Shown piece by piece: positions 1 through 42,364 of a DNA stretch of 42,364 nt. This stretch comes from Candidatus Eiseniibacteriota bacterium (lineage in GTDB: Bacteria > Joyebacterota > Joyebacteria > Joyebacterales > Joyebacteraceae): contig DAOWCM010000003.1 in assembly GCA_030639555.1 (NCBI GenBank), positions 1-42,364 on the forward strand. The letters run 5' to 3'. Under the pieces are notes generated by a model, which searched no databases, had not been told where the DNA came from, and saw nothing but the letters and a program-made list of their open reading frames with translations. The first letter of the stretch is position 1. The number at the start of each line of letters is the position of its first letter. Made by a program: the position numbers and the translations under genes.

Positions 1-141
1 GAAACGGCCGTTATCTATCTGGCGCCAGCGGTCGAGAGTGTAGCGTACGGGGGCGAAGACACCTGTTTAGGGCGCTCGCGAGGTTGTACGCTCGCCTGTC
101 TTGGCCATCGCTCGGATCGGCTTAGAATGGTCTCTGGCGCC
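1..141. repeat. Terminal direct repeat, copy 1 (identical to 42224-42364); circular-assembly overlap
   Basis: gaaacggccg...tctctggcgcc (141 nt) recurs exactly at the window end, and an ORF reads in frame across the junction. Confidence 0.95.
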
Positions 142-34067: not shown

Positions 34068-34358
34068 TTACTCCTTGATCTGTTCGATGGCGATCGTGCC
34101 GCGCACCTTCACATAGAGCCCGGACGCCTTGTCCTTGAAGACCAGGACACTCGAGCCCTCGGGAGACCGGGTGTGGCCCTGGGAGGTCCACTCCCCGACG
34201 ACATTGCCGCCAGAGTAGAGCCGGACCCGGTGGTCCTTGCCACGAGAGGCGCGAGCCGCGTTCTCGGCGTCGGTGCAGCCAGAACAGTAGTAGATCACAC
34301 CGATAATGAGGATCCACGCGAAGATGGCTCGTACGACCCGAGGTCCGTTGGTGCGCAT
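34068..34358 (-). CDS. Putative lipoprotein
   Basis: Hydrophobic stretch ending in a lipobox-like CSG-C, then TDA...VRLYSGG..VGEWTS. Confidence 0.6.
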   Translation of the reverse strand: MRTNGPRVVRAIFAWILIIGVIYYCSGCTDAENAARASRGKDHRVRLYSGGNVVGEWTSQGHTRSPEGSSVLVFKDKASGLYVKVRGTIAIEQIKE

Positions 34359-34386
34359 TCTCTTAACCCATCAGGTTAATGAAAAC

Positions 34387-34503
34387 GGCCTGACGAAATC
34401 GAAGTGACGTGTTTATGGGGCCGAGCTTTCGCCATCCCCTCGCCGGCAGATGGGCCGGCGATAAGAATCGAACTTATGATGTAGTCACGACAGCATTCAG
34501 GCC
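34387..34503 (-). ncRNA. Y-RNA-like unit Y5 (Ro stem + T arm + closed acceptor hairpin + GAAA-tetraloop arm)
   Basis: GGCCUGA-AUGC...UUCG-UCAGGCC terminal stem; GUGAC/GUCAC upper stem; T arm AUAAG-UUCGAUU-CUUAU; acceptor CGCCGGC-CCAUCU-GCCGGCG. Confidence 0.8.
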
Positions 34504-34520
34504 GGGGCGTACTCTATAAA

Positions 34521-34595
34521 GAGCCGACAAGGATTGAAAGTGAGGGTACGAATCTCTTCCAAAAAGGGATGTACTCACTCTCGAGCATTCGGCTC
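34521..34595 (-). ncRNA. Minimal Y-RNA-like unit Y4 (75 nt)
   Basis: GAGCCGA-AUGC...CUUG-UCGGCUC contains the bacterial Y RNA GNCGAANG motif; upper stem GAGAGUGAG/CUCACUUUC. Confidence 0.8.
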
Positions 34596-34605
34596 ATCTC
34601 CGTAA

Positions 34606-34654
34606 GAGCGAAGCTGGGCCCGGACCCAACGCCATTTGACGACGTGCTTCGCTC
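34606..34654 (-). ncRNA. Structured RNA element A (three-way junction, 49 nt)
   Basis: 9-bp stem GAGCGAAGC/GCUUCGCUC enclosing hairpins ACGUCG-UCAAA-UGGCGU and UGGGU-CCGG-GCCCA; G-U pairs favour the minus strand. Confidence 0.5.
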
Positions 34655-34660
34655 AATTCT

Positions 34661-34749
34661 GGCACGGGCGGCTGCTGGGGCACCTGACTTCCCAGCTCTT
34701 CCTGCGCTTCACCGCGGTTCCACGCAGGCTGCGTTTGTAGGTTTGCGCC
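34661..34749 (-). ncRNA. Structured RNA element B (two hairpins in a closing stem, about 89 nt)
   Basis: GGCGC/GUGCC ends; hairpins CCUGCG...CGCAGG and GCUGGG...CCCAGC. Confidence 0.45.
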
Positions 34750-34772
34750 AAGCCTCCCTCATTCTGATTAGC

Positions 34773-34906
34773 GGCGCAACGAGGATTGGCGAGAGGGTTT
34801 TTGTGCTACCAATTACACTACACGGCCTTTTGAGGGGCCGCGTCCGGACTCGAACCGAAACTTTCTAAGTACAAATTAGATGTACTCTCAACCGAGCATT
34901 TGCGCC
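34773..34906 (-). ncRNA. YrlA-like Y RNA Y3 containing a complete circularly permuted tRNA (anticodon UGU)
   Basis: GGCGCAA-AUGC...CUCG-UUGCGCC. In order: anticodon arm UCUAA-UUUGUAC-UUAGA, T arm UUCGG-UUCGAGU-CCGGA, acceptor CGCGGCC-loop-GGCCGUG, UA, D arm GUGU-AAUUGGUA-GCAC. Confidence 0.88.
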
Positions 34907-34916
34907 TATTTTATAA

Positions 34917-34987
34917 GCCCCGACAAGGGGTAGATTCACGAGACGATATCAGATGTGAGATGTAGTCCCGTTGAGGGCATTCGGGGC
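34917..34987 (-). ncRNA. Minimal Y-RNA-like unit Y2 (71 nt)
   Basis: GCCCCGA-AUGC...CUUG-UCGGGGC; upper stem CGGGAC/GUCUCG followed by UACAU. Confidence 0.8.
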
Positions 34988-34994
34988 AATTCTT

Positions 34995-35008
34995 GTTTTC
35001 AAAGAGCA
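34995..35008 (-). promoter_or_regulatory. boxA-like (NusB/NusE) antitermination site
   Basis: Minus strand TGCTCTTTGAAAAC, versus rrn boxA TGCTCTTTAACA, in the spacer after the first Y RNA. Confidence 0.65.
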
Positions 35009-35013
35009 GTAGA

Positions 35014-35163
35014 GGCGCGACGAGTCTTCGAGTGAGGGACAACGGGTTTGACCCCGCAACGGTACTCTACCACTGAGTTACACAGTCGATTTAACGGCCG
35101 TGACTGGACTCGAACCAGCGACTCCCGGCTTGACAGGCATGTACTCACTCAGGCATTCGCGCC
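35014..35163 (-). ncRNA. YrlA-like Y RNA Y1 with a tRNA-Asp-like domain
   Basis: GGCGCGA-AUGC...CUCG-UCGCGCC; GAGUGAG/CUCACUC; GC-CUGUCAA-GC; T arm GCUGG-UUCGAGU-CCAGU; acceptor CACGGCC-G..C-GACUGUG; D arm ACUC-AGUGGUA-GAGU. Confidence 0.88.
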
Positions 35164-35600
35164 AGCTCGTTATCGTGTAGGGCCCTGGGTGAAAAGTAAA
35201 CTGGAATCTCTGGATGCTGGTGACGCCAGGCGTGCATGATCTTACGGATCCCCTTGCCGAAGCCCTCCTGTCGACGATCGAGCCCCGTGCGCGAGGTGTT
35301 GAGCCACACGACGGCGTCGACCTCAAGGCCCTTCCGAAGACAGCGCGGGACCTGAGTTCCGGCGACTATGAAAGATTCTTTCCCAGTCACCAGTGAGCAT
35401 ATCTTCGAGGGAATCGTCGGCCAGTCTTTCCTCGAGAGCACATCGGTATGGACAACCTCCTTCGGAGGGGTCCCACGTCCGCCTTCCTCGAGCAGCAAGG
35501 TTTTCCCGCTGTTCACCACGCCGGTCAAGGCGACGCGGGGATAGACCTCGAGCAATTTGCGCCAGACCGTCGGTGTAAGCTGTTCTTGTATCAGCGTCAT
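35145..35600 (-). CDS. Small P-loop kinase (adenylate/polynucleotide-kinase-like fold)
   Basis: RVALTGVVNSGKT Walker A, then VVHTD, FIVAG and VDAVVWL strands; 151 aa. Confidence 0.7.
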   Translation of the reverse strand: MTLIQEQLTPTVWRKLLEVYPRVALTGVVNSGKTLLLEEGGRGTPPKEVVHTDVLSRKDWPTIPSKICSLVTGKESFIVAGTQVPRCLRKGLEVDAVVWLNTSRTGLDRRQEGFGKGIRKIMHAWRHQHPEIPVYFSPRALHDNELARMPE

Positions 35601-35820
35601 TGACCAGCTTCTCCCAGCTCTCTCGGTTGGCCCAGATCGTGTTCGAGATCGAGTAGACGTAGCCCTTCGGGATGAACGGGCTCAGCTGGATCTGAAACGA
35701 CCACAGCATCGGCTTGTCAGGCGGAAAGAGCTGCGGCATCGTCTTCCTGGCGACACCGGCGGCTACCGCTATCGCTCCAAGAACGGCTTTGAGGAACGAA
35801 CGCCTTTCGACTCTTTCCAT
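35323..35820 (-). CDS. Twin-arginine-signal protein 2
   Basis: ATG 35820 after GGAG; MERVERRSFLKAVLGAIAVAAG; the C-terminal part overlaps the kinase ORF. Confidence 0.55.
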   Translation of the reverse strand: MERVERRSFLKAVLGAIAVAAGVARKTMPQLFPPDKPMLWSFQIQLSPFIPKGYVYSISNTIWANRESWEKLVNDADTRTAYTDGLAQIARGLSPRRLDRRGEQRENLAARGRRTWDPSEGGCPYRCALEERLADDSLEDMLTGDWERIFHSRRNSGPALSSEGP

Positions 35821-36068
35821 GATCCGTTCTCCATTCTCAGGTACACAAGCTCGTCGGTCGTCATCACGATGAGCGTCCCAGGGATGAGCTTCACTTTGGC
35901 GAGGCCCGGGTCGCCCTTCGCCATCGCCCAGATCCCCGGCTTGTACCAGTTGGTGTGCGTCACCACCGGATCGGGCTTCGGCATGACTGAAGGCAGCGCC
36001 CCAGGAACGACAAGGGCGGTGGCGCACCCGAGGGCTGCTTTCAGAAAACTACGACGGTTCCTTTTCAT
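35769..36068 (-). CDS. Twin-arginine-signal protein 1
   Basis: MKRNRRSFLKAALGCATALVVP; the start overlaps the Ro60 3' end. Confidence 0.6.
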   Translation of the reverse strand: MKRNRRSFLKAALGCATALVVPGALPSVMPKPDPVVTHTNWYKPGIWAMAKGDPGLAKVKLIPGTLIVMTTDELVYLRMENGSWKESKGVRSSKPFLER

Positions 36069-37704
36069 GCACAGACGTTAGCTCGACAGCCTTGATCTGG
36101 TCAACCCAGAAACCCTTCGACGCCTGGCCCTTCGCCACAGCGTCGAGAAAACGGAACACACTGTCGGAGAATCCCCCGACGTTGAAAATGTCGTCACGCT
36201 CCTTCGCTTGCGTAGACGCGTACGGGTTGATGTCGATGCAGACCATCTTCGCCTGCGGGCTTTTGCGCTTGAAATGCTCCCAGGCTCGCATCGTCCCTGT
36301 CGGCTGGTTCAGCCCTTGGAGGGACTGGTAGCGATAGCCCGGGTAGCGGCCGTTGGACTCGACCCAGGACTGGTTGTCGGACACGTAGACGCAGAGGTCC
36401 CCGGTGAGGCCCTGAGCGTTCAGGAGGTCGAGCGGTGCAGCCAGATTGGTAGCGCCCCCGTTGAAACGGGCCAGGATCTCCGTGTTGGTCATGACGGAGT
36501 CGCGCGGGTTGAGCCGGACGTTGTGCGCCCGCTGGTCGAACGGAATGACGACCGTCTTCGGGTTGGCGCGGAGAATCGCGGATGCCACCAGCGCGGCGAC
36601 CATCTGACAGGTTACCCGGGTCGTGGAGCCCTTGCGGGCGCCCGTGACCGGAGACTGCATGGAGCCCGAGACGTCGGGGAAGACATAGATCTGGCCGGTG
36701 GTCGAAGGGATGTTCTCGAGGGACGCGTCGAGTGCGTCCTGGAGAGCCTCGGAGATGTCGTGAGGCACGTCCTTGACCGCGTGGTATGCCATGAACAGCT
36801 GGTAGGGGAAGCAGCGAGCGCGGCGCACCAGCTCGGGGCTGGCGAGACGCCTGGCCACGACCTGGATCATCTTCGGGTCCTCGAACACCCCGTGTCGCTT
36901 GAAGGTGTTCAGGTTCATCCGGGTCATCTGCCACGGCGCGCGATTCGCGATGTCCGTCCACTCCTTCTTCCCGAGCTTCAGCGAGGTCAGCATCTGGAAG
37001 GGGACGTCGGGCACCTCGATGTCGATGCGGTCCTCGCCGACGCGGTGGGAGTAGGCCTTGTACGCCTCGAAGTCGCGGACGAGGTCCGGGAGCACATCCA
37101 GACCTTCGGCCCAGACGTTCTCGTTCTTCCCGATCAGGTACGCGAAGAGCGCGGCCTGCATCTTGCTCGCGGGCTTGGGGTGAACCATCTTGATCACGTC
37201 GGCGATCGACGGATCCTGGCCCACGGAGTCGCGGAAGAGCCGGTCGAACTTCCGTCCGGTCAGCCACCCGCGCACGAGGCGGCGGGGCGCGGATCCCATG
37301 CTCTTCCGACCGGTCACGCCCGAGCGGACGATCTGGACGAAGTTGCGCAGCATCCGTGCGTTGTCCATGACGAGCGGGAACGCCAGATTCAGCAGCGGAT
37401 CCTTCCGGGCAGCCAGCACCGCGCAGAGCAGCGCCGGCATGTCCTTCATGAACGCCTGGCGTCGAGCGTAGACCGCGGTGCGGGCGACGAAGTCCGAGCT
37501 GCAGCCATCGGCGAGCTTCAGCACCTTCTCGAGCTGGGCCTCCGCGGTCGCGTAGAACGTGTTGCCGAAGCAGCCGGTGGCGGCGAGCTGCGCGAGCCCG
37601 TGCTCGGAGCCCTGGTCGTACGCCGTGCCGCCTGCCTCGTTCTTGATGTCCGTGTTGGGGAGCAACTGTCCCCGAGTGGACGCAAAGACACCCTTGTTAG
37701 CCAT
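36049..37704 (-). CDS. rsr: Ro60 / TROVE-domain RNA-binding protein with C-terminal vWA domain
   Basis: 551 aa; NEAGGTAY...LAQLAATGCFGNTFY, AVYARRQAFMKDMPALL, RMLRNFVQIVRSG, DVIKMVHPKP, WQMTRMNLNTF; vWA MIDAS DVSGSM, GGATN, VSDNQSW, VGGFSDSVF; GGAGG RBS. Confidence 0.95.
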   Translation of the reverse strand: MANKGVFASTRGQLLPNTDIKNEAGGTAYDQGSEHGLAQLAATGCFGNTFYATAEAQLEKVLKLADGCSSDFVARTAVYARRQAFMKDMPALLCAVLAARKDPLLNLAFPLVMDNARMLRNFVQIVRSGVTGRKSMGSAPRRLVRGWLTGRKFDRLFRDSVGQDPSIADVIKMVHPKPASKMQAALFAYLIGKNENVWAEGLDVLPDLVRDFEAYKAYSHRVGEDRIDIEVPDVPFQMLTSLKLGKKEWTDIANRAPWQMTRMNLNTFKRHGVFEDPKMIQVVARRLASPELVRRARCFPYQLFMAYHAVKDVPHDISEALQDALDASLENIPSTTGQIYVFPDVSGSMQSPVTGARKGSTTRVTCQMVAALVASAILRANPKTVVIPFDQRAHNVRLNPRDSVMTNTEILARFNGGATNLAAPLDLLNAQGLTGDLCVYVSDNQSWVESNGRYPGYRYQSLQGLNQPTGTMRAWEHFKRKSPQAKMVCIDINPYASTQAKERDDIFNVGGFSDSVFRFLDAVAKGQASKGFWVDQIKAVELTSVHEKEPS

Positions 37705-37752
37705 CGGCCTGTCCTCCCTGGCTTAGGGTTGTGGGGTGGAAACGTGAGGAGT

Positions 37753-38133
37753 CTACAGCCCCCGCGCCGCGATGTCCCGCGCCAAATCGAGGCACAGCCG
37801 GGTTCTCCAATCACCCACGCGCAGCATCATGGTCTCGACATCCACCTCGGCGACGACCCCGCCACCGTGGGTGATGCGGGCCATGTAGGAGTCCCGGTTC
37901 ATCCGACGCTGGACGAAGACGTCGTACTCGCTCGTGGGGAGGTGCCTCCGTATTTCGAGCTCGATCATCCCCGGCCAGCTACCGTCGATCTGCTGGCGCC
38001 GGCGCTGCTCCGCCAGTTCGTACATCGGGACCTGATTCACTCCAGAGAGATGTGGGGAGTCTGCCCATCCCAGAGGGCTCAGGCCTATGGCCTGGTCGTA
38101 TCCCTGCTGGGTGATGTGGAGGATCCGGCTCAC
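37753..38133 (-). CDS. Hypothetical protein
   Basis: GTGA-coupled ORF upstream of Ro60. Confidence 0.5.
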   Translation of the reverse strand: MSRILHITQQGYDQAIGLSPLGWADSPHLSGVNQVPMYELAEQRRRQQIDGSWPGMIELEIRRHLPTSEYDVFVQRRMNRDSYMARITHGGGVVAEVDVETMMLRVGDWRTRLCLDLARDIAARGL

Positions 38134-38291
38134 CGCTTGATCCCCTTCTCGACCCCGTCGGCGATGATCTCGACGGCCCCTGCTCGAGCGCGATCCAGGA
38201 GGTCCGATCGCTCCCGAGGGGGCGGGTTCATCAGCGCGATCCCCGCGAGGACGACGCCCAGGGCGACGAGCGCGACCTTCCAGAGCTTCAC
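38130..38291 (-). CDS. Small membrane/secreted protein (53 aa)
   Basis: GTG 38291 overlaps the upstream stop; MKLWKVALVALGVVLAGIALMN. Confidence 0.5.
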   Translation of the reverse strand: MKLWKVALVALGVVLAGIALMNPPPRERSDLLDRARAGAVEIIADGVEKGIKR

Positions 38292-38575
38292 CGGCTCTTC
38301 CTCACGACCGGCGGGGAGTGGACGTCGGACGGGCGGACGTTGCCGCCGCCGAGCGCGTACTTCCCGAGCCACTCGCGCGCGGCGGAGCGGACCTTCAGAT
38401 CCCCGTCGATGGCGTCCTGGACGCAGGCAGCCGCGACCTTCTCGATGTCGTCGGTCGAGATCTGGTTGATCACGGCCGCGAGGTAGCTGCGCTCGTTGCG
38501 CTTGCGCCTGACGGTCGCCACGAGGGTCTGGGCCTCGATGACGTCCTTATCGGTGAGGGGCGGCAGGTCGGTCAT
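38288..38575 (-). CDS. Small helical protein (TerS-like helix motif)
   Basis: DDIEKVAAACVQDAIDGD...AAREWLGKYALG resembles the A..GD..A..L motif of small phage packaging-associated proteins. Confidence 0.45.
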   Translation of the reverse strand: MTDLPPLTDKDVIEAQTLVATVRRKRNERSYLAAVINQISTDDIEKVAAACVQDAIDGDLKVRSAAREWLGKYALGGGNVRPSDVHSPPVVRKSR

Positions 38576-42040: not shown

Positions 42041-42364
42041 ATGAGACTACCAAAGGGCGATGAGATTCGGGCCCTTGTTCTCGCCGAGATGCGCATCGCT
42101 CTCAAGGCAAAGCGCATCAACCTCGGGCAATGGGTCGCGGCGCAATCGGTCGTTTGGCCAGAGACTACGCCAAAGATTCTCGGCGACTCTCTCAAGGTCC
42201 AAAAAGGGCGCAAGATCGGCTTTGAAACGGCCGTTATCTATCTGGCGCCAGCGGTCGAGAGTGTAGCGTACGGGGGCGAAGACACCTGTTTAGGGCGCTC
42301 GCGAGGTTGTACGCTCGCCTGTCTTGGCCATCGCTCGGATCGGCTTAGAATGGTCTCTGGCGCC
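42041..42364 (+). CDS. gp88-like protein, 5' part (continues at 142-645)
   Basis: ATG 42041 after GAGGGAAG; open frame MRLPKGDEIR...KGRKIGFETAVIYLAPA...TCLGRSRGCTLACL runs into the terminal repeat. Confidence 0.75.
   Translation, partial: MRLPKGDEIRALVLAEMRIALKAKRINLGQWVAAQSVVWPETTPKILGDSLKVQKGRKIGFETAVIYLAPAVESVAYGGEDTCLGRSRGCTLACLGHRSDRLRMVSGA
42224..42364. repeat. Terminal direct repeat, copy 2
   Basis: Identical to 1-141. Confidence 0.95.

What the first reader, a model, noticed from the sequence alone, without database searches (positions are those of the whole stretch)
34387..37704. Phage Ro60 module with a five-unit array of modular Y RNAs (one shared docking stem, different payloads)
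Seen: an intact Ro60/TROVE-vWA gene, then two Tat-signal ORFs, a P-loop kinase and about 780 nt of non-coding DNA on the same strand. That DNA holds five units of 150, 71, 134, 75 and 117 nt. Each has a perfect 7-bp terminal stem of different sequence (GGCGCGA, GCCCCGA, GGCGCAA, GAGCCGA, GGCCUGA, each with its exact complement). Each also has an invariant AUGC opposite YUYG, an upper stem, and an invariant UACAU. The payloads differ: tRNA-Asp-like, loop only, full permuted tRNA, single hairpin, and T arm + acceptor + GAAA arm. Established: bacterial Ro60 (Rsr) binds Y RNAs through a terminal stem with a GNCGAAN(0-1)G motif, YrlA RNAs mimic tRNA, rsr-yrl genes often sit with the RtcB ligase, and some phages carry Ro. 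Inference: one Ro ring is loaded with a library of interchangeable RNA adaptors or decoys, with a kinase where RtcB/RtcA usually sit, perhaps to counter host tRNA-cleaving defences or to redirect RNA decay. I cannot tell from here whether arrays of this form are already catalogued.
Basis: partly seen in the sequence, partly recalled or inferred. Interest (0 to 1): 0.92.

Follow-up and report, generated by a model that had tools for sequence, protein, structure and literature searches.

The report
Phage Ro60 gene with five Y RNAs
A complete 42-kb phage genome carries a Ro60 RNA-binding protein gene followed by five small RNA genes that share one Ro60-docking stem but differ in the rest, a larger-than-usual example of a system already known from bacteria and phages.

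Summary
On the minus strand, Ro60 (36049-37704) is followed by two Tat-signal ORFs, a small P-loop ORF and five RNA units of 150, 71, 134, 75 and 117 nt. Each unit has a perfect 7-bp Watson-Crick terminal stem, AUGC, UACAU and YUYG.

These are Y RNAs. Rfam YrlA hits U1 and U3, significantly but below gathering. The same module recurs next to related Ro60 genes: 262 units on the Ro60 strand against 1 on the opposite strand in 99 loci, with up to 8 per locus. The terminal, upper, T, acceptor-like and D stems all covary. A natural variant carries compensatory changes in U5 and U1.

- "Kinase": the ORF has only a Walker A motif and no family hit.
- "tRNA-Asp-like": the best tRNA match in the bin is Lys.
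- The anti-nuclease decoy idea could not be tested here.

Phage Ro60 with Y RNAs, tRNA-like YrlA, and several Y RNAs sharing one Ro-binding stem are all published. I therefore file this as a new member of a known kind. What may be new is the array size and the variety of modules. Expression and Ro60 binding remain untested.

The parts
36049..37704 (-). Ro60/Rsr homologue, 551 aa (TROVE ring plus vWA domain with DVSGS MIDAS-like motif)
   Evidence: Pfam vWA_Ro60 and TROVE are above their cut-offs. PHROG 850 'RNA-binding protein' E 3.6e-35 over residues 19-523. PDB 2NVO Rsr E 5e-13 and phage phiLo Ro60 9KOP E 4e-8. It is the only TROVE match in the bin.
35769..36068 (-). Small ORF 1 with a twin-arginine signal (99 aa, MKRNRRSFLKAALG...)
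   Evidence: TIGR01409 23.0 bits, cut-off 16.7. A homologue (48% over 84 aa) lies downstream of the 77%-identical Ro60 in L023.
35323..35820 (-). Small ORF 2 with a twin-arginine signal (MERVERRSFLKAVLG...). Its end is uncertain: the frame stays open to 35323 and overlaps the next ORF.
   Evidence: TIGR01409 20.8 bits. Frame read. No homologue was found in the fetched loci.
35145..35600 (-). P-loop (Walker A GVVNSGKT) protein of unknown family, 151 aa. Its last 6 codons and stop overlap U1.
   Evidence: No Pfam, PHROG or NCBIfam family. 13 homologues, none named. The C-terminus ELARMPE is conserved. Only P-loop-level similarity to PDB and Pfam entries.
35014..35163 (-). U1: YrlA-type Y RNA, 150 nt. 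It has the docking module, a T arm, an acceptor-like stem-loop, a D arm and an extra T-arm-like hairpin.
   Evidence: Rfam YrlA 34.5 bits, E 1.8e-5. Aligns with 45 related YrlA-type units, with covarying stems. A63-U82 changes to G-C in a natural variant.
34917..34987 (-). U2: short Y RNA, 71 nt. It has the docking module, a 7-bp upper stem and a 20-nt loop.
   Evidence: CM R1 53.2 bits. Fold z-score -2.8. It is one of the model's training sequences.
34773..34906 (-). U3: YrlA-type Y RNA, 134 nt. It has an anticodon-arm-like hairpin (5 bp, loop UUUGUAC), a T arm, a 7-bp acceptor-like stem and a D arm.
   Evidence: Rfam YrlA 30.4 bits, E 2.7e-4. Rfam tRNA 23.9 bits, below the cut-off of 29. Alignment and covariation. 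Hairpin.
34596..34772 (-). 177-nt spacer between U3 and U4. It is not a unit and is not conserved.
   Evidence: Fold z-score +0.5. No CM hit with filters off. 131 nt of it are replaced by 22 nt in a ~90% relative.
34521..34595 (-). U4: short Y RNA, 75 nt. It has the docking module and one long hairpin. It is the only unit with the strict GNCGAAN0-1G motif.
   Evidence: CM R1 44.7 bits. Fold z-score -3.2. Motif test.
34387..34503 (-). U5: Y RNA, 117 nt. It has a T arm (loop UUCGAUU), an 8-bp GC hairpin in the acceptor position, and a GAAA-capped hairpin where YrlA has the D arm.
   Evidence: Fold z-score -3.5. Three compensatory pair changes in the GC hairpin in a natural variant. Compared with ~113-nt YrlAs.

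Best explanation
This is a phage-borne Ro60 (Rsr) ribonucleoprotein module: one Ro60 gene and five Y RNA genes on the same strand.

All five RNAs have the family's docking module. This is a 7-bp terminal stem ending in (C/U)(G/A)A, an internal loop of AUGC opposite ...YUYG, an upper stem, and UACAU. The module corresponds to the conserved 5' and 3' parts of Rfam YrlA and to the published Ro-binding motif.

The modules beyond the dock differ. U1 and U3 are tRNA-like YrlA types. U5 is a YrlA derivative that lacks the D arm. U2 and U4 are simple hairpins of the YrlB/Yrn2 kind.

Inferred steps:
- The RNAs are probably made as one precursor, possibly together with the upstream genes, and then cut out.
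- Each RNA binds the phage Ro60 through the common dock.
- The variable module of each RNA brings a different host partner to Ro60, such as PNPase or other exoribonucleases, or tRNA-binding enzymes. Alternatively it gates the ring. Either way, host RNA decay or RNA quality control is re-targeted during infection.

Shown here: the sequence and structure family, the covariation, and the linkage to Ro60. Inferred from the literature on Rsr, Yrn1, YrlA and phage phiLo: the binding, the processing and the partners.
For: - Rfam YrlA hits U1 (34.5 bits, E 1.8e-5) and U3 (30.4 bits, E 2.7e-4) across the full model.
- Units of the same architecture in related loci pass the YrlA gathering score: 7 hits of 72-80 bits in 4 of the 6 loci scanned. 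They align with U1 and U3.
- RNAalifold on 47 units predicts 30 pairs, and 27 of them show compensatory changes. These cover the terminal, upper, T, acceptor-like and D stems.
- In 19 short units, 92% of cells are paired against 60% in shuffles. All 12 pairs have changes on both sides. The upper helix, which was not used to find the units, is 86% paired. Slid controls give 28-52%.
- CM R1 gives 39 of 39 hits on the Ro60 strand in the window, L002 and 19 viral loci (the 19 training units are among them). It gives 108 of 108 in 80 metagenome loci, none of which were used in training.
- The descriptor finds 262 units on the Ro60 strand against 1 on the opposite strand in 99 loci.
- A ~90% natural variant keeps U1-U5, with 3 compensatory pairs in U5 and 1 in U1.
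- The Ro60 gene is intact.
- Published precedents: YrlA within 4 kb of Ro60 on the same strand in 254 bacteria and 22 phages, with at least 2 Y RNAs in each studied species (PMC4201824, passages and section 6 read). Phage phiLo Ro60 binds two phage Yrls and host PNPase in vitro (PMC12135203, passages read).
Against: - No unit reaches the Rfam YrlA gathering score of 69 bits.
- The strict published motif GNCGAAN0-1G is present in only 1 of the 5 units.
- There is no evidence of expression, of discrete RNA ends or of Ro60 binding.
- No promoter-like site was found in 34100-38300.
- Some listed variant positions break MFE-predicted pairs: 3 in U1, 1 in U2, 1 in U3 and 1 in U5. However, those pairs are single-sequence predictions, indels were ignored, and 66 further substitutions were not shown.
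- The short units were picked by a pattern that demands the terminal stem, so the percentage paired in that stem is partly circular.
- The related loci are kin, so the counts across them are not independent.
Confidence: 0.85

Rival explanations
1. The main role of the tRNA-like units is to act as decoys or sensors against host tRNA-targeting defences (anticodon nucleases and the like). Ro60 would protect or present them.
For: - U1 and U3 carry full T, acceptor-like and D elements.
- U3 has a 5-bp hairpin with a 7-nt loop of anticodon-loop form (U33, R37). 27 of 111 T-loop units in the family have such a hairpin, where about 6 of the 48 hairpins with a 7-nt loop would be expected from base frequencies (the expectation is my own arithmetic).
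- U1 nt 18-68 is 86% identical to tRNA-Lys(UUU) of the bin.
- A Ro60-like gene of phage Bas63 counters the ppl defence system (bioRxiv 10.1101/2024.10.10.617714, passage read).
Against: - There is no nuclease target, repair enzyme or ligase in the window. RtcB is found only on another contig.
- The hairpins mostly have only 3-bp stems.
- U2 and U4 have no tRNA features.
- The similarity to tRNA-Lys lies mainly in the universally conserved T arm.
- Bacterial YrlAs have the same tRNA-like domain without any phage context (PMC4201824).
Confidence: 0.15
2. The units are structured processing or stabilising elements of the Ro60 operon transcript (tRNA-like punctuation and 3' protective stems). On this view they are not trans-acting Ro60 ligands.
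For: - Spacing is tight: 26, 10 and 17 nt between neighbouring units.
- No promoter-like site was found.
- The acceptor-like stem is 7 bp in the family, the length that lets RNase P cut M. smegmatis YrlA (PMC4201824).
- Terminal 7-mers repeat within arrays less often than in shuffled arrays: 2 against 8.4 +/- 2.6. This fits folding within a single precursor.
Against: - The conserved AUGC/UACAU/YUYG module matches the Ro-binding part of YrlA.
- The module occurs essentially only beside Ro60 genes: 262 against 1, with scattered single hits elsewhere in the bin.
- Processing from a precursor is compatible with the main explanation and is known for M. smegmatis YrlA and YrlB.
Confidence: 0.05
3. 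The array is a decayed tRNA gene cluster (pseudo-tRNAs) left over from the tRNA arrays that flank Ro60 in related phages.
For: In 11 related viral loci scanned, Ro60 lies among many tRNA genes: 101 tRNA hits and one tmRNA. U1 and U3 contain tRNA-like arms.
Against: - ARAGORN finds no tRNA in the window. The Rfam tRNA score for U3 is 23.9, below the cut-off of 29.
- The arms are circularly permuted and enclosed by a covarying docking module.
- Compensatory changes in a natural variant indicate selection on structure.
- U2 and U4 have no tRNA parts.
Confidence: 0.03

Closest known systems
YrlA (Rfam RF02553), the tRNA-like bacterial and phage Y RNAs encoded beside rsr (Chen et al. 2014, PMC4201824)
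   Same: - Same strand as Ro60 and within 4 kb of it.
- A 5'/3' terminal stem with CGAAUGC-type motif, and YUAY/UACAU.
- T arm, closed acceptor-like stem and D arm in U1 and U3.
- Related loci contain units that pass the Rfam gathering score.
   Different: - U1 and U3 score only 34.5 and 30.4 bits against a gathering score of 69.
- U1 has an extra T-arm-like hairpin.
- U3 has an anticodon-arm-like hairpin.
- U5 has lost the D arm.
- There are five units rather than the one to two usually described.
YrlB, Yrn2 and M. smegmatis YrlB: second, simpler Y RNAs of the same loci (PMC4201824)
   Same: U2 and U4 are plain hairpins that carry the same Ro-binding end. U5, like M. smegmatis YrlB, keeps a T arm only.
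   Different: There is no sequence homology, and no curated model exists to test membership.
Thermus phage phiLo Ro60 with Yrl1 and Yrl2 (PMC12135203, 2025), and mycobacteriophage, CcrColossus and phage G Ro60 loci
   Same: A phage-encoded Ro60 with its own Y RNA-like genes nearby. Ro60 is homologous to 9KOP (E 4e-8).
   Different: - phiLo has two RNAs upstream of Ro60. Here there are five downstream, separated from Ro60 by three ORFs.
- Binding and the PNPase complex were shown for phiLo. Nothing has been shown here.
Salmonella rsr-yrlBA-rtcBA RNA repair operon
   Same: Ro60 and Y RNAs lie in one transcription unit.
   Different: There is no RtcB, RtcA or RtcR in the window (one search finds RtcB only on contig C59). 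Two Tat-signal ORFs and an unclassified P-loop protein sit there instead.
Metazoan Y RNA families (for example four human Y RNAs on one Ro60; recalled, not checked in a call)
   Same: Several paralogous RNAs share a conserved Ro-binding stem and differ in the loop module.
   Different: The effector modules are unrelated, and the metazoan RNAs have no tRNA-like domain.

Membership tests
Ro60-associated Y RNA (bacterial/phage) | Encoded within about 4 kb of a Ro60 gene, on the same strand | tested here: met
   The units lie 886-2317 nt downstream of the Ro60 stop, on the minus strand like Ro60.
Ro60-associated Y RNA (bacterial/phage) | The 5' and 3' ends pair into a stem that carries the Ro-binding motif GNCGAAN0-1G | tested here: inconclusive
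   The terminal stem is perfect in 5 of 5 units. The strict motif is present in 1 of 5 (U4). The relaxed YRAAUGC is present in 5 of 5. Across the family the strict motif occurs in 161 of 262 units. The C and G of the motif covary with the 3' strand.
Ro60-associated Y RNA (bacterial/phage) | Bound and stabilised by Ro60, and accumulates as a discrete small RNA | not testable with these tools
   No RNA run holds the stretch. This needs RIP, EMSA and Northern blots.
YrlA (Rfam RF02553) | Score at or above the curated gathering score (69 bits) | tested here: not met
   U1 scores 34.5 bits and U3 30.4 bits. There are no hits at gathering. Related units in L043, L073, L078 and L094 score 72-80 bits.
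YrlA (Rfam RF02553) | tRNA-like domain: T arm, closed acceptor-like stem and D arm | tested here: met
   U1 and U3 align column for column with 45 related units. The T (5 bp), acceptor-like (7 bp) and D (4 bp) stems covary. U5 has the T arm and acceptor-like hairpin but no D arm. U2 and U4 have none of these.
Ro60/Rsr protein | TROVE ring plus vWA domain | tested here: met
   Pfam TROVE 26.6 bits (cut-off 23) and vWA_Ro60 40.1 bits (cut-off 27.7). 2NVO E 5e-13 over residues 15-448. The NCBIfam Rsr equivalog scores only 65 bits against a cut-off of 900, so this is a distant member.
tRNA | Recognised by tRNA gene finders or models | tested here: not met
   ARAGORN finds 0 in the window. Rfam tRNA scores 23.9 bits on part of U3, below the cut-off of 29.
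   Pfam, PHROGs and NCBIfam give nothing. A profile against PDB gives its best hits to the GTPase Der P-loop (E 0.008) and to a helicase C-terminal motif (E 0.03). Kinases appear only at E 0.4 or worse. Members hit mixed P-loop families at E 0.009 or worse. The fold could not be predicted because the tool is off.
Tat (twin-arginine) signal | TIGR01409 above its cut-off | tested here: met
   23.0 and 20.8 bits, cut-off 16.7.

The most novel reading that the evidence does not exclude
Phage Ro60 genes carry expandable cassette arrays of Y RNAs. One constant docking module is fused to payloads that turn over quickly. These payloads include whole permuted tRNAs with anticodon-loop-like hairpins of different 'anticodons'. 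Each unit has its own private terminal stem, so the precursor folds correctly. The array would work as a programmable set of adaptors or decoys aimed at host tRNA-directed immunity or at particular host RNases. The conserved P-loop protein, whose gene ends inside the first Y RNA, would be a dedicated loading or processing factor.
Probability: 0.15. Interest if true: 0.8.

Novelty: new member of a known kind. Interest (0 to 1): 0.45.

Why it matters
What Ro60-Y RNA particles do in bacteria and phages is still poorly understood. This complete small phage genome brings both the protein and five different RNAs into a bin that has no other TROVE gene. That makes it a compact, self-contained system in which to ask what each RNA module recruits.

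The survey made here suggests that multi-unit arrays are the rule in this Ro60 clade: 19 of 99 loci have five or more units, and the maximum is eight. Current models (Rfam YrlA) see only the tRNA-like units. A model of the docking module alone would therefore annotate many missed small RNAs.

Tried and rejected
- Rfam at gathering on the window: no hit. ARAGORN: no tRNA.
- MAFFT on the five units alone misaligned the 3' ends, so I did not use that alignment for a model.
- A sixth unit in the 177-nt spacer: rejected. The fold z-score is +0.5 and there is no CM hit with filters off.
- 'tRNA-Asp-like' U1: the best tRNA in the bin is Lys(UUU), 92.9% over 28 nt. Asp gives 84% over 32 nt. The GUC triplets lie in poorly paired or 6-nt loops.
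- The match of U1 to contig C138 is simply the bin's tRNA-Lys gene, not a second Y RNA.
- P-loop protein:
  - No family found.
  - No relatives in 30 other genomes of the order.
  - None in genome contigs.
  - Only 30-33% relatives in 5 viral contigs, with no Y RNA hits there.
- The degenerate pattern for the P-loop/U1 junction gave 30 viral stretches. None holds a P-loop relative in tblastn, and I examined them no further.
- Promoter and terminator scan: 0 promoter-like sites, and 2 terminator-like sites against 2.8 expected. Uninformative.
- Expression: no RNA holder is listed among the public runs. The four runs laid are DNA contigs.
- A possible payload swap in U1 in a second contig of run X12 rests on a 26-letter side and may come from another organism. 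I kept it only as a lead.
- Papers PMC10870794 and PMC6047535 (the Ro60/Y RNA reviews) are not held. The supplementary tables of PMC4201824, which list how many YrlAs each phage has, could not be seen. My statement that arrays of five or more are not described therefore rests only on searches and on the passages I read.

Full report
**What is there**

The window is a whole contig (C86) of a 2.64-Mb metagenomic bin. Its two ends share a 141-nt repeat. It encodes a large terminase, a portal, a major head protein and a tail fibre. It is therefore a complete phage genome of about 42.2 kb.

On the minus strand lie the following:
- a 551-aa Ro60 homologue (36049-37704);
- a 99-aa ORF with a twin-arginine signal (35769-36068);
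- a second Tat-signal ORF that starts at 35820 and whose frame has no stop until 35323;
- a 151-aa ORF with a Walker A motif (35145-35600);
- 777 nt without convincing ORFs.

Ro60 passes Pfam TROVE and vWA_Ro60. It matches PHROG 850 over nearly its full length. It is homologous to D. radiodurans Rsr (2NVO, E 5e-13), to phage phiLo Ro60 (9KOP) and to the vertebrate Ro60 structures. It is the only TROVE match in the bin.

**The five units**

U1 is 35163-35014 (150 nt), U2 34987-34917 (71), U3 34906-34773 (134), U4 34595-34521 (75) and U5 34503-34387 (117). Each has a perfect Watson-Crick 7-bp terminal stem of a different sequence, followed by AUGC. Each has UACAU about 10 nt further on, and CUCG, CUUG or UUCG just before the 3' strand.

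Single-sequence folds keep the terminal stem in all five. Fold z-scores are -2.6 to -3.5 for U2-U5 and -0.9 for U1. The 177-nt spacer between U3 and U4 folds no better than shuffles.

**More than chance**

The strict pattern gives 30 hits on the Ro60 strand and none on the other strand in the window plus 20 viral loci. L010 is identical to L009, so 24 of the 30 are distinct. A relaxed pattern over the whole bin (2.64 Mb, both strands) gives 32 hits. The five window units are all perfect and clustered. The other 27 are scattered, at most two per contig, and 26 of them have a mismatch.

**What they are**

Rfam finds nothing at gathering. With E-value thresholds on 1.2 kb, YrlA matches U1 (34.5 bits, E 1.8e-5) and U3 (30.4 bits, E 2.7e-4) over the full model.

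I then fetched 20 viral loci and 80 metagenome loci that encode Ro60 relatives. Identities are 40-56%, with one at 77%. The same architecture recurs there:
- In 99 distinct loci the pattern finds 262 units on the Ro60 strand and 1 on the other strand.
- The numbers of loci with 0, 1, 2, 3, 4, 5, 6, 7 and 8 units are 13, 19, 21, 16, 11, 10, 5, 3 and 1.
- A few of the 262 are probably false, for example hits inside Ro60 ORFs seen.

A MAFFT alignment of 19 short units shows 92% paired cells against 60% in shuffles. All 12 pairs have changes on both sides. The upper helix, which the pattern did not require, is 86% paired. Slid controls give 28-52%.

A covariance model built from that alignment hits 39 of 39 times on the Ro60 strand in the window, L002 and 19 viral loci. 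Those hits include the 19 training units. It hits 108 of 108 times on the Ro60 strand in the 80 metagenome loci, none of which was used in training.

U1 and U3 align column for column with 45 long units. RNAalifold predicts 30 pairs: terminal stem 7, upper stem 7, T stem 5, acceptor-like stem 7 and D stem 4. Of these, 27 have compensatory changes. In 4 of the 6 related loci I scanned with Rfam, units of this kind pass the YrlA gathering score (7 hits of 72-80 bits). The family I delineated is therefore YrlA proper, plus shorter relatives that Rfam's model does not cover.

**Natural variation**

DNA contigs of one public run (X12) hold a relative about 90% identical that keeps U1-U5. In it, 131 nt of the U3-U4 spacer are replaced by 22 nt. 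Among the 40 substitutions listed, out of 106:
- three pairs of the 8-bp hairpin of U5 change on both sides and stay paired (34441/34460, 34445/34456, 34446/34455);
- one pair of the acceptor-like stem of U1 changes from A-U to G-C;
- six listed changes break MFE-predicted pairs (three in U1, one each in U2, U3 and U5).

Those broken pairs come from single-sequence folds, indels were ignored, and 66 substitutions were not shown. I therefore treat this as supportive evidence, not as a census.

**The modules**

- U1 has a T arm, a closed acceptor-like stem (6 of 7 pairs), a D arm and an extra hairpin, GCGGGGUCAAACCCGU. That hairpin resembles a T arm one base short, and it recurs in a unit of L088.
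- U3 has a 5-bp hairpin with a 7-nt loop, UUUGUAC, of anticodon-loop form, followed by a T arm, a 7-bp acceptor-like stem and a D arm.
- U5 has a T arm (loop UUCGAUU), a GC hairpin in the acceptor position, and a GAAA-capped hairpin where the ~113-nt YrlAs of related loci have the D arm.
- U2 and U4 are plain hairpins.

The best tRNA of the bin is Lys(UUU), at 86% over 50 nt and 92.9% over 28 nt. Asp reaches 84% over 32 nt, and most of the similarity is in the T arm.

**The protein genes in between**

- Both small ORFs pass the Tat-signal model.
- The first has a homologue downstream of the closest Ro60 relative, at 77% Ro60 identity (L023).
- The P-loop ORF has 13 unnamed homologues and no family in Pfam, PHROGs or NCBIfam.
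- Profile searches give only generic P-loop similarity, so 'kinase' is unsupported.
- The fold could not be predicted.
- The last six codons and the stop of this ORF are the first 19 nt of U1. The C-terminus ...ALHD.ELARMPE is almost invariant in homologues down to 52% identity. This suggests that the first Y RNA follows the gene in those relatives too. That is an inference, because I could not see their DNA.
- RtcB is absent from the window and is present only on contig C59.

**How it most likely works**

By homology with studied systems, the five RNAs dock on the phage Ro60 through the shared module. Their different modules then recruit or mimic different partners. This is the published tether-and-gate model: D. 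radiodurans Yrn1 tethers Rsr to PNPase, and phage phiLo Ro60, its Yrls and host PNPase form a complex in vitro (PMC4201824 and PMC12135203, passages read).

Three observations fit one precursor that is then cut, as in M. smegmatis:
- the spacing between units is tight (10-26 nt);
- no promoter-like site was found;
- the acceptor-like stems are 7 bp.

Terminal 7-mers repeat within arrays less often than in shuffled arrays: 2 against 8.4 +/- 2.6, P 0.005. The loci are kin, so this is only a hint. It would help each unit fold on its own. None of these steps is shown for this phage.

**Comparison with what is known, and novelty**

The following are already in print:
- Y RNAs beside Ro60 in 254 bacteria and 22 phages, their tRNA mimicry, and at least two Y RNAs per studied species (PMC4201824, passages and section 6 read).
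- Two Yrls in phage phiLo (PMC12135203, passages read).
- Ro60-like genes next to tRNA stretches in phage Bas63 (bioRxiv 10.1101/2024.10.10.617714, passage read).
- Three abundant RNAs near an Rsr-like gene in a Listeria phage (PMC12282133, passage read).
- ROT/TROVE proteins in jumbo phages (PMC7824862, passage read).

The finding is thus a new member of a known kind. In four literature searches I found no description of arrays of five to eight units, of short non-tRNA-like units sharing the YrlA dock, or of the P-loop and Tat genes in such a module. However, the two main reviews and the supplementary tables of the 2014 paper were not available to me.

**Verdict**

The core of the interpretation (Y RNA array) is well supported, and the embellishments (kinase, Asp, decoys) are not. 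Interest is moderate, at 0.45.

Noticed in passing
window 1-141 and 42224-42364: The contig ends share a 141-nt direct repeat. The contig is therefore a complete circular or terminally redundant phage genome of about 42.2 kb.
   Followed up: partly
window 35145-35195: The P-loop ORF ends inside U1. Its last ~16 residues (..RALHD.ELARMPE) are nearly invariant in homologues that are otherwise only 52-55% identical. This reaches about 30 nt upstream of U1, where a processing site or promoter might lie.
   Followed up: partly
window 35323-35820: The second Tat-signal ORF has no stop codon before the P-loop ORF starts. Its frame stays open for 278 nt into that gene. Either the two genes overlap extensively, or the ORF call is wrong.
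   Followed up: no
L003, L004, L005, L008, L011, L012, L013: In related viral contigs Ro60 sits inside large tRNA gene arrays, with 101 tRNA hits across the 11 loci scanned and one tmRNA in L008. Several of these loci (L003, L004, L008, L011) have no unit by the pattern. The window has no tRNA gene at all.
   Followed up: partly
L035:6825-6933, L041:6721-6829, L042:7136-7244: These ~109-nt units begin the payload with GGTAGAGC and end it with TAGCTCAG, with anticodon-like, T and acceptor-like hairpins in between. They look like a tRNA permuted within the D loop, which is a different permutation from YrlA.
   Followed up: no
111 T-loop-bearing units of L005-L100 and the window: 48 of them have a hairpin with a 7-nt loop before the T arm. 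In 27 the loop has U at position 2 and a purine at position 6, like an anticodon loop, and the middle triplets vary. Published work calls this the V arm.
   Followed up: partly
window 35035-35126 (run X12): A second contig joins 35035 to 35126 with 24 other letters that form a small GC hairpin. The tRNA-like payload of U1 may be replaced in a relative. The evidence is weak: the side is only 26 letters.
   Followed up: no
window 35099-35145: Contig depth spikes in all four runs laid. Short contigs from other organisms match the T arm of U1 at 85% or more, which shows how tRNA-like this stretch is.
   Followed up: no
G000 contigs C59 and C86: The bin has RtcB on C59 and no TROVE gene apart from the phage's. 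If the bin is the host, the phage supplies the whole Ro60 system. The host link rests on binning alone.
   Followed up: partly
L094, L043, L073, L078, L036, L095: Arrays downstream of Ro60 in this sub-clade keep a similar order of unit sizes: about 62, then 101, about 131 and about 130, and finally 113 nt. This suggests conserved paralogous Y RNA classes. The window's order is different: 150, 71, 134, 75, 117.
   Followed up: no
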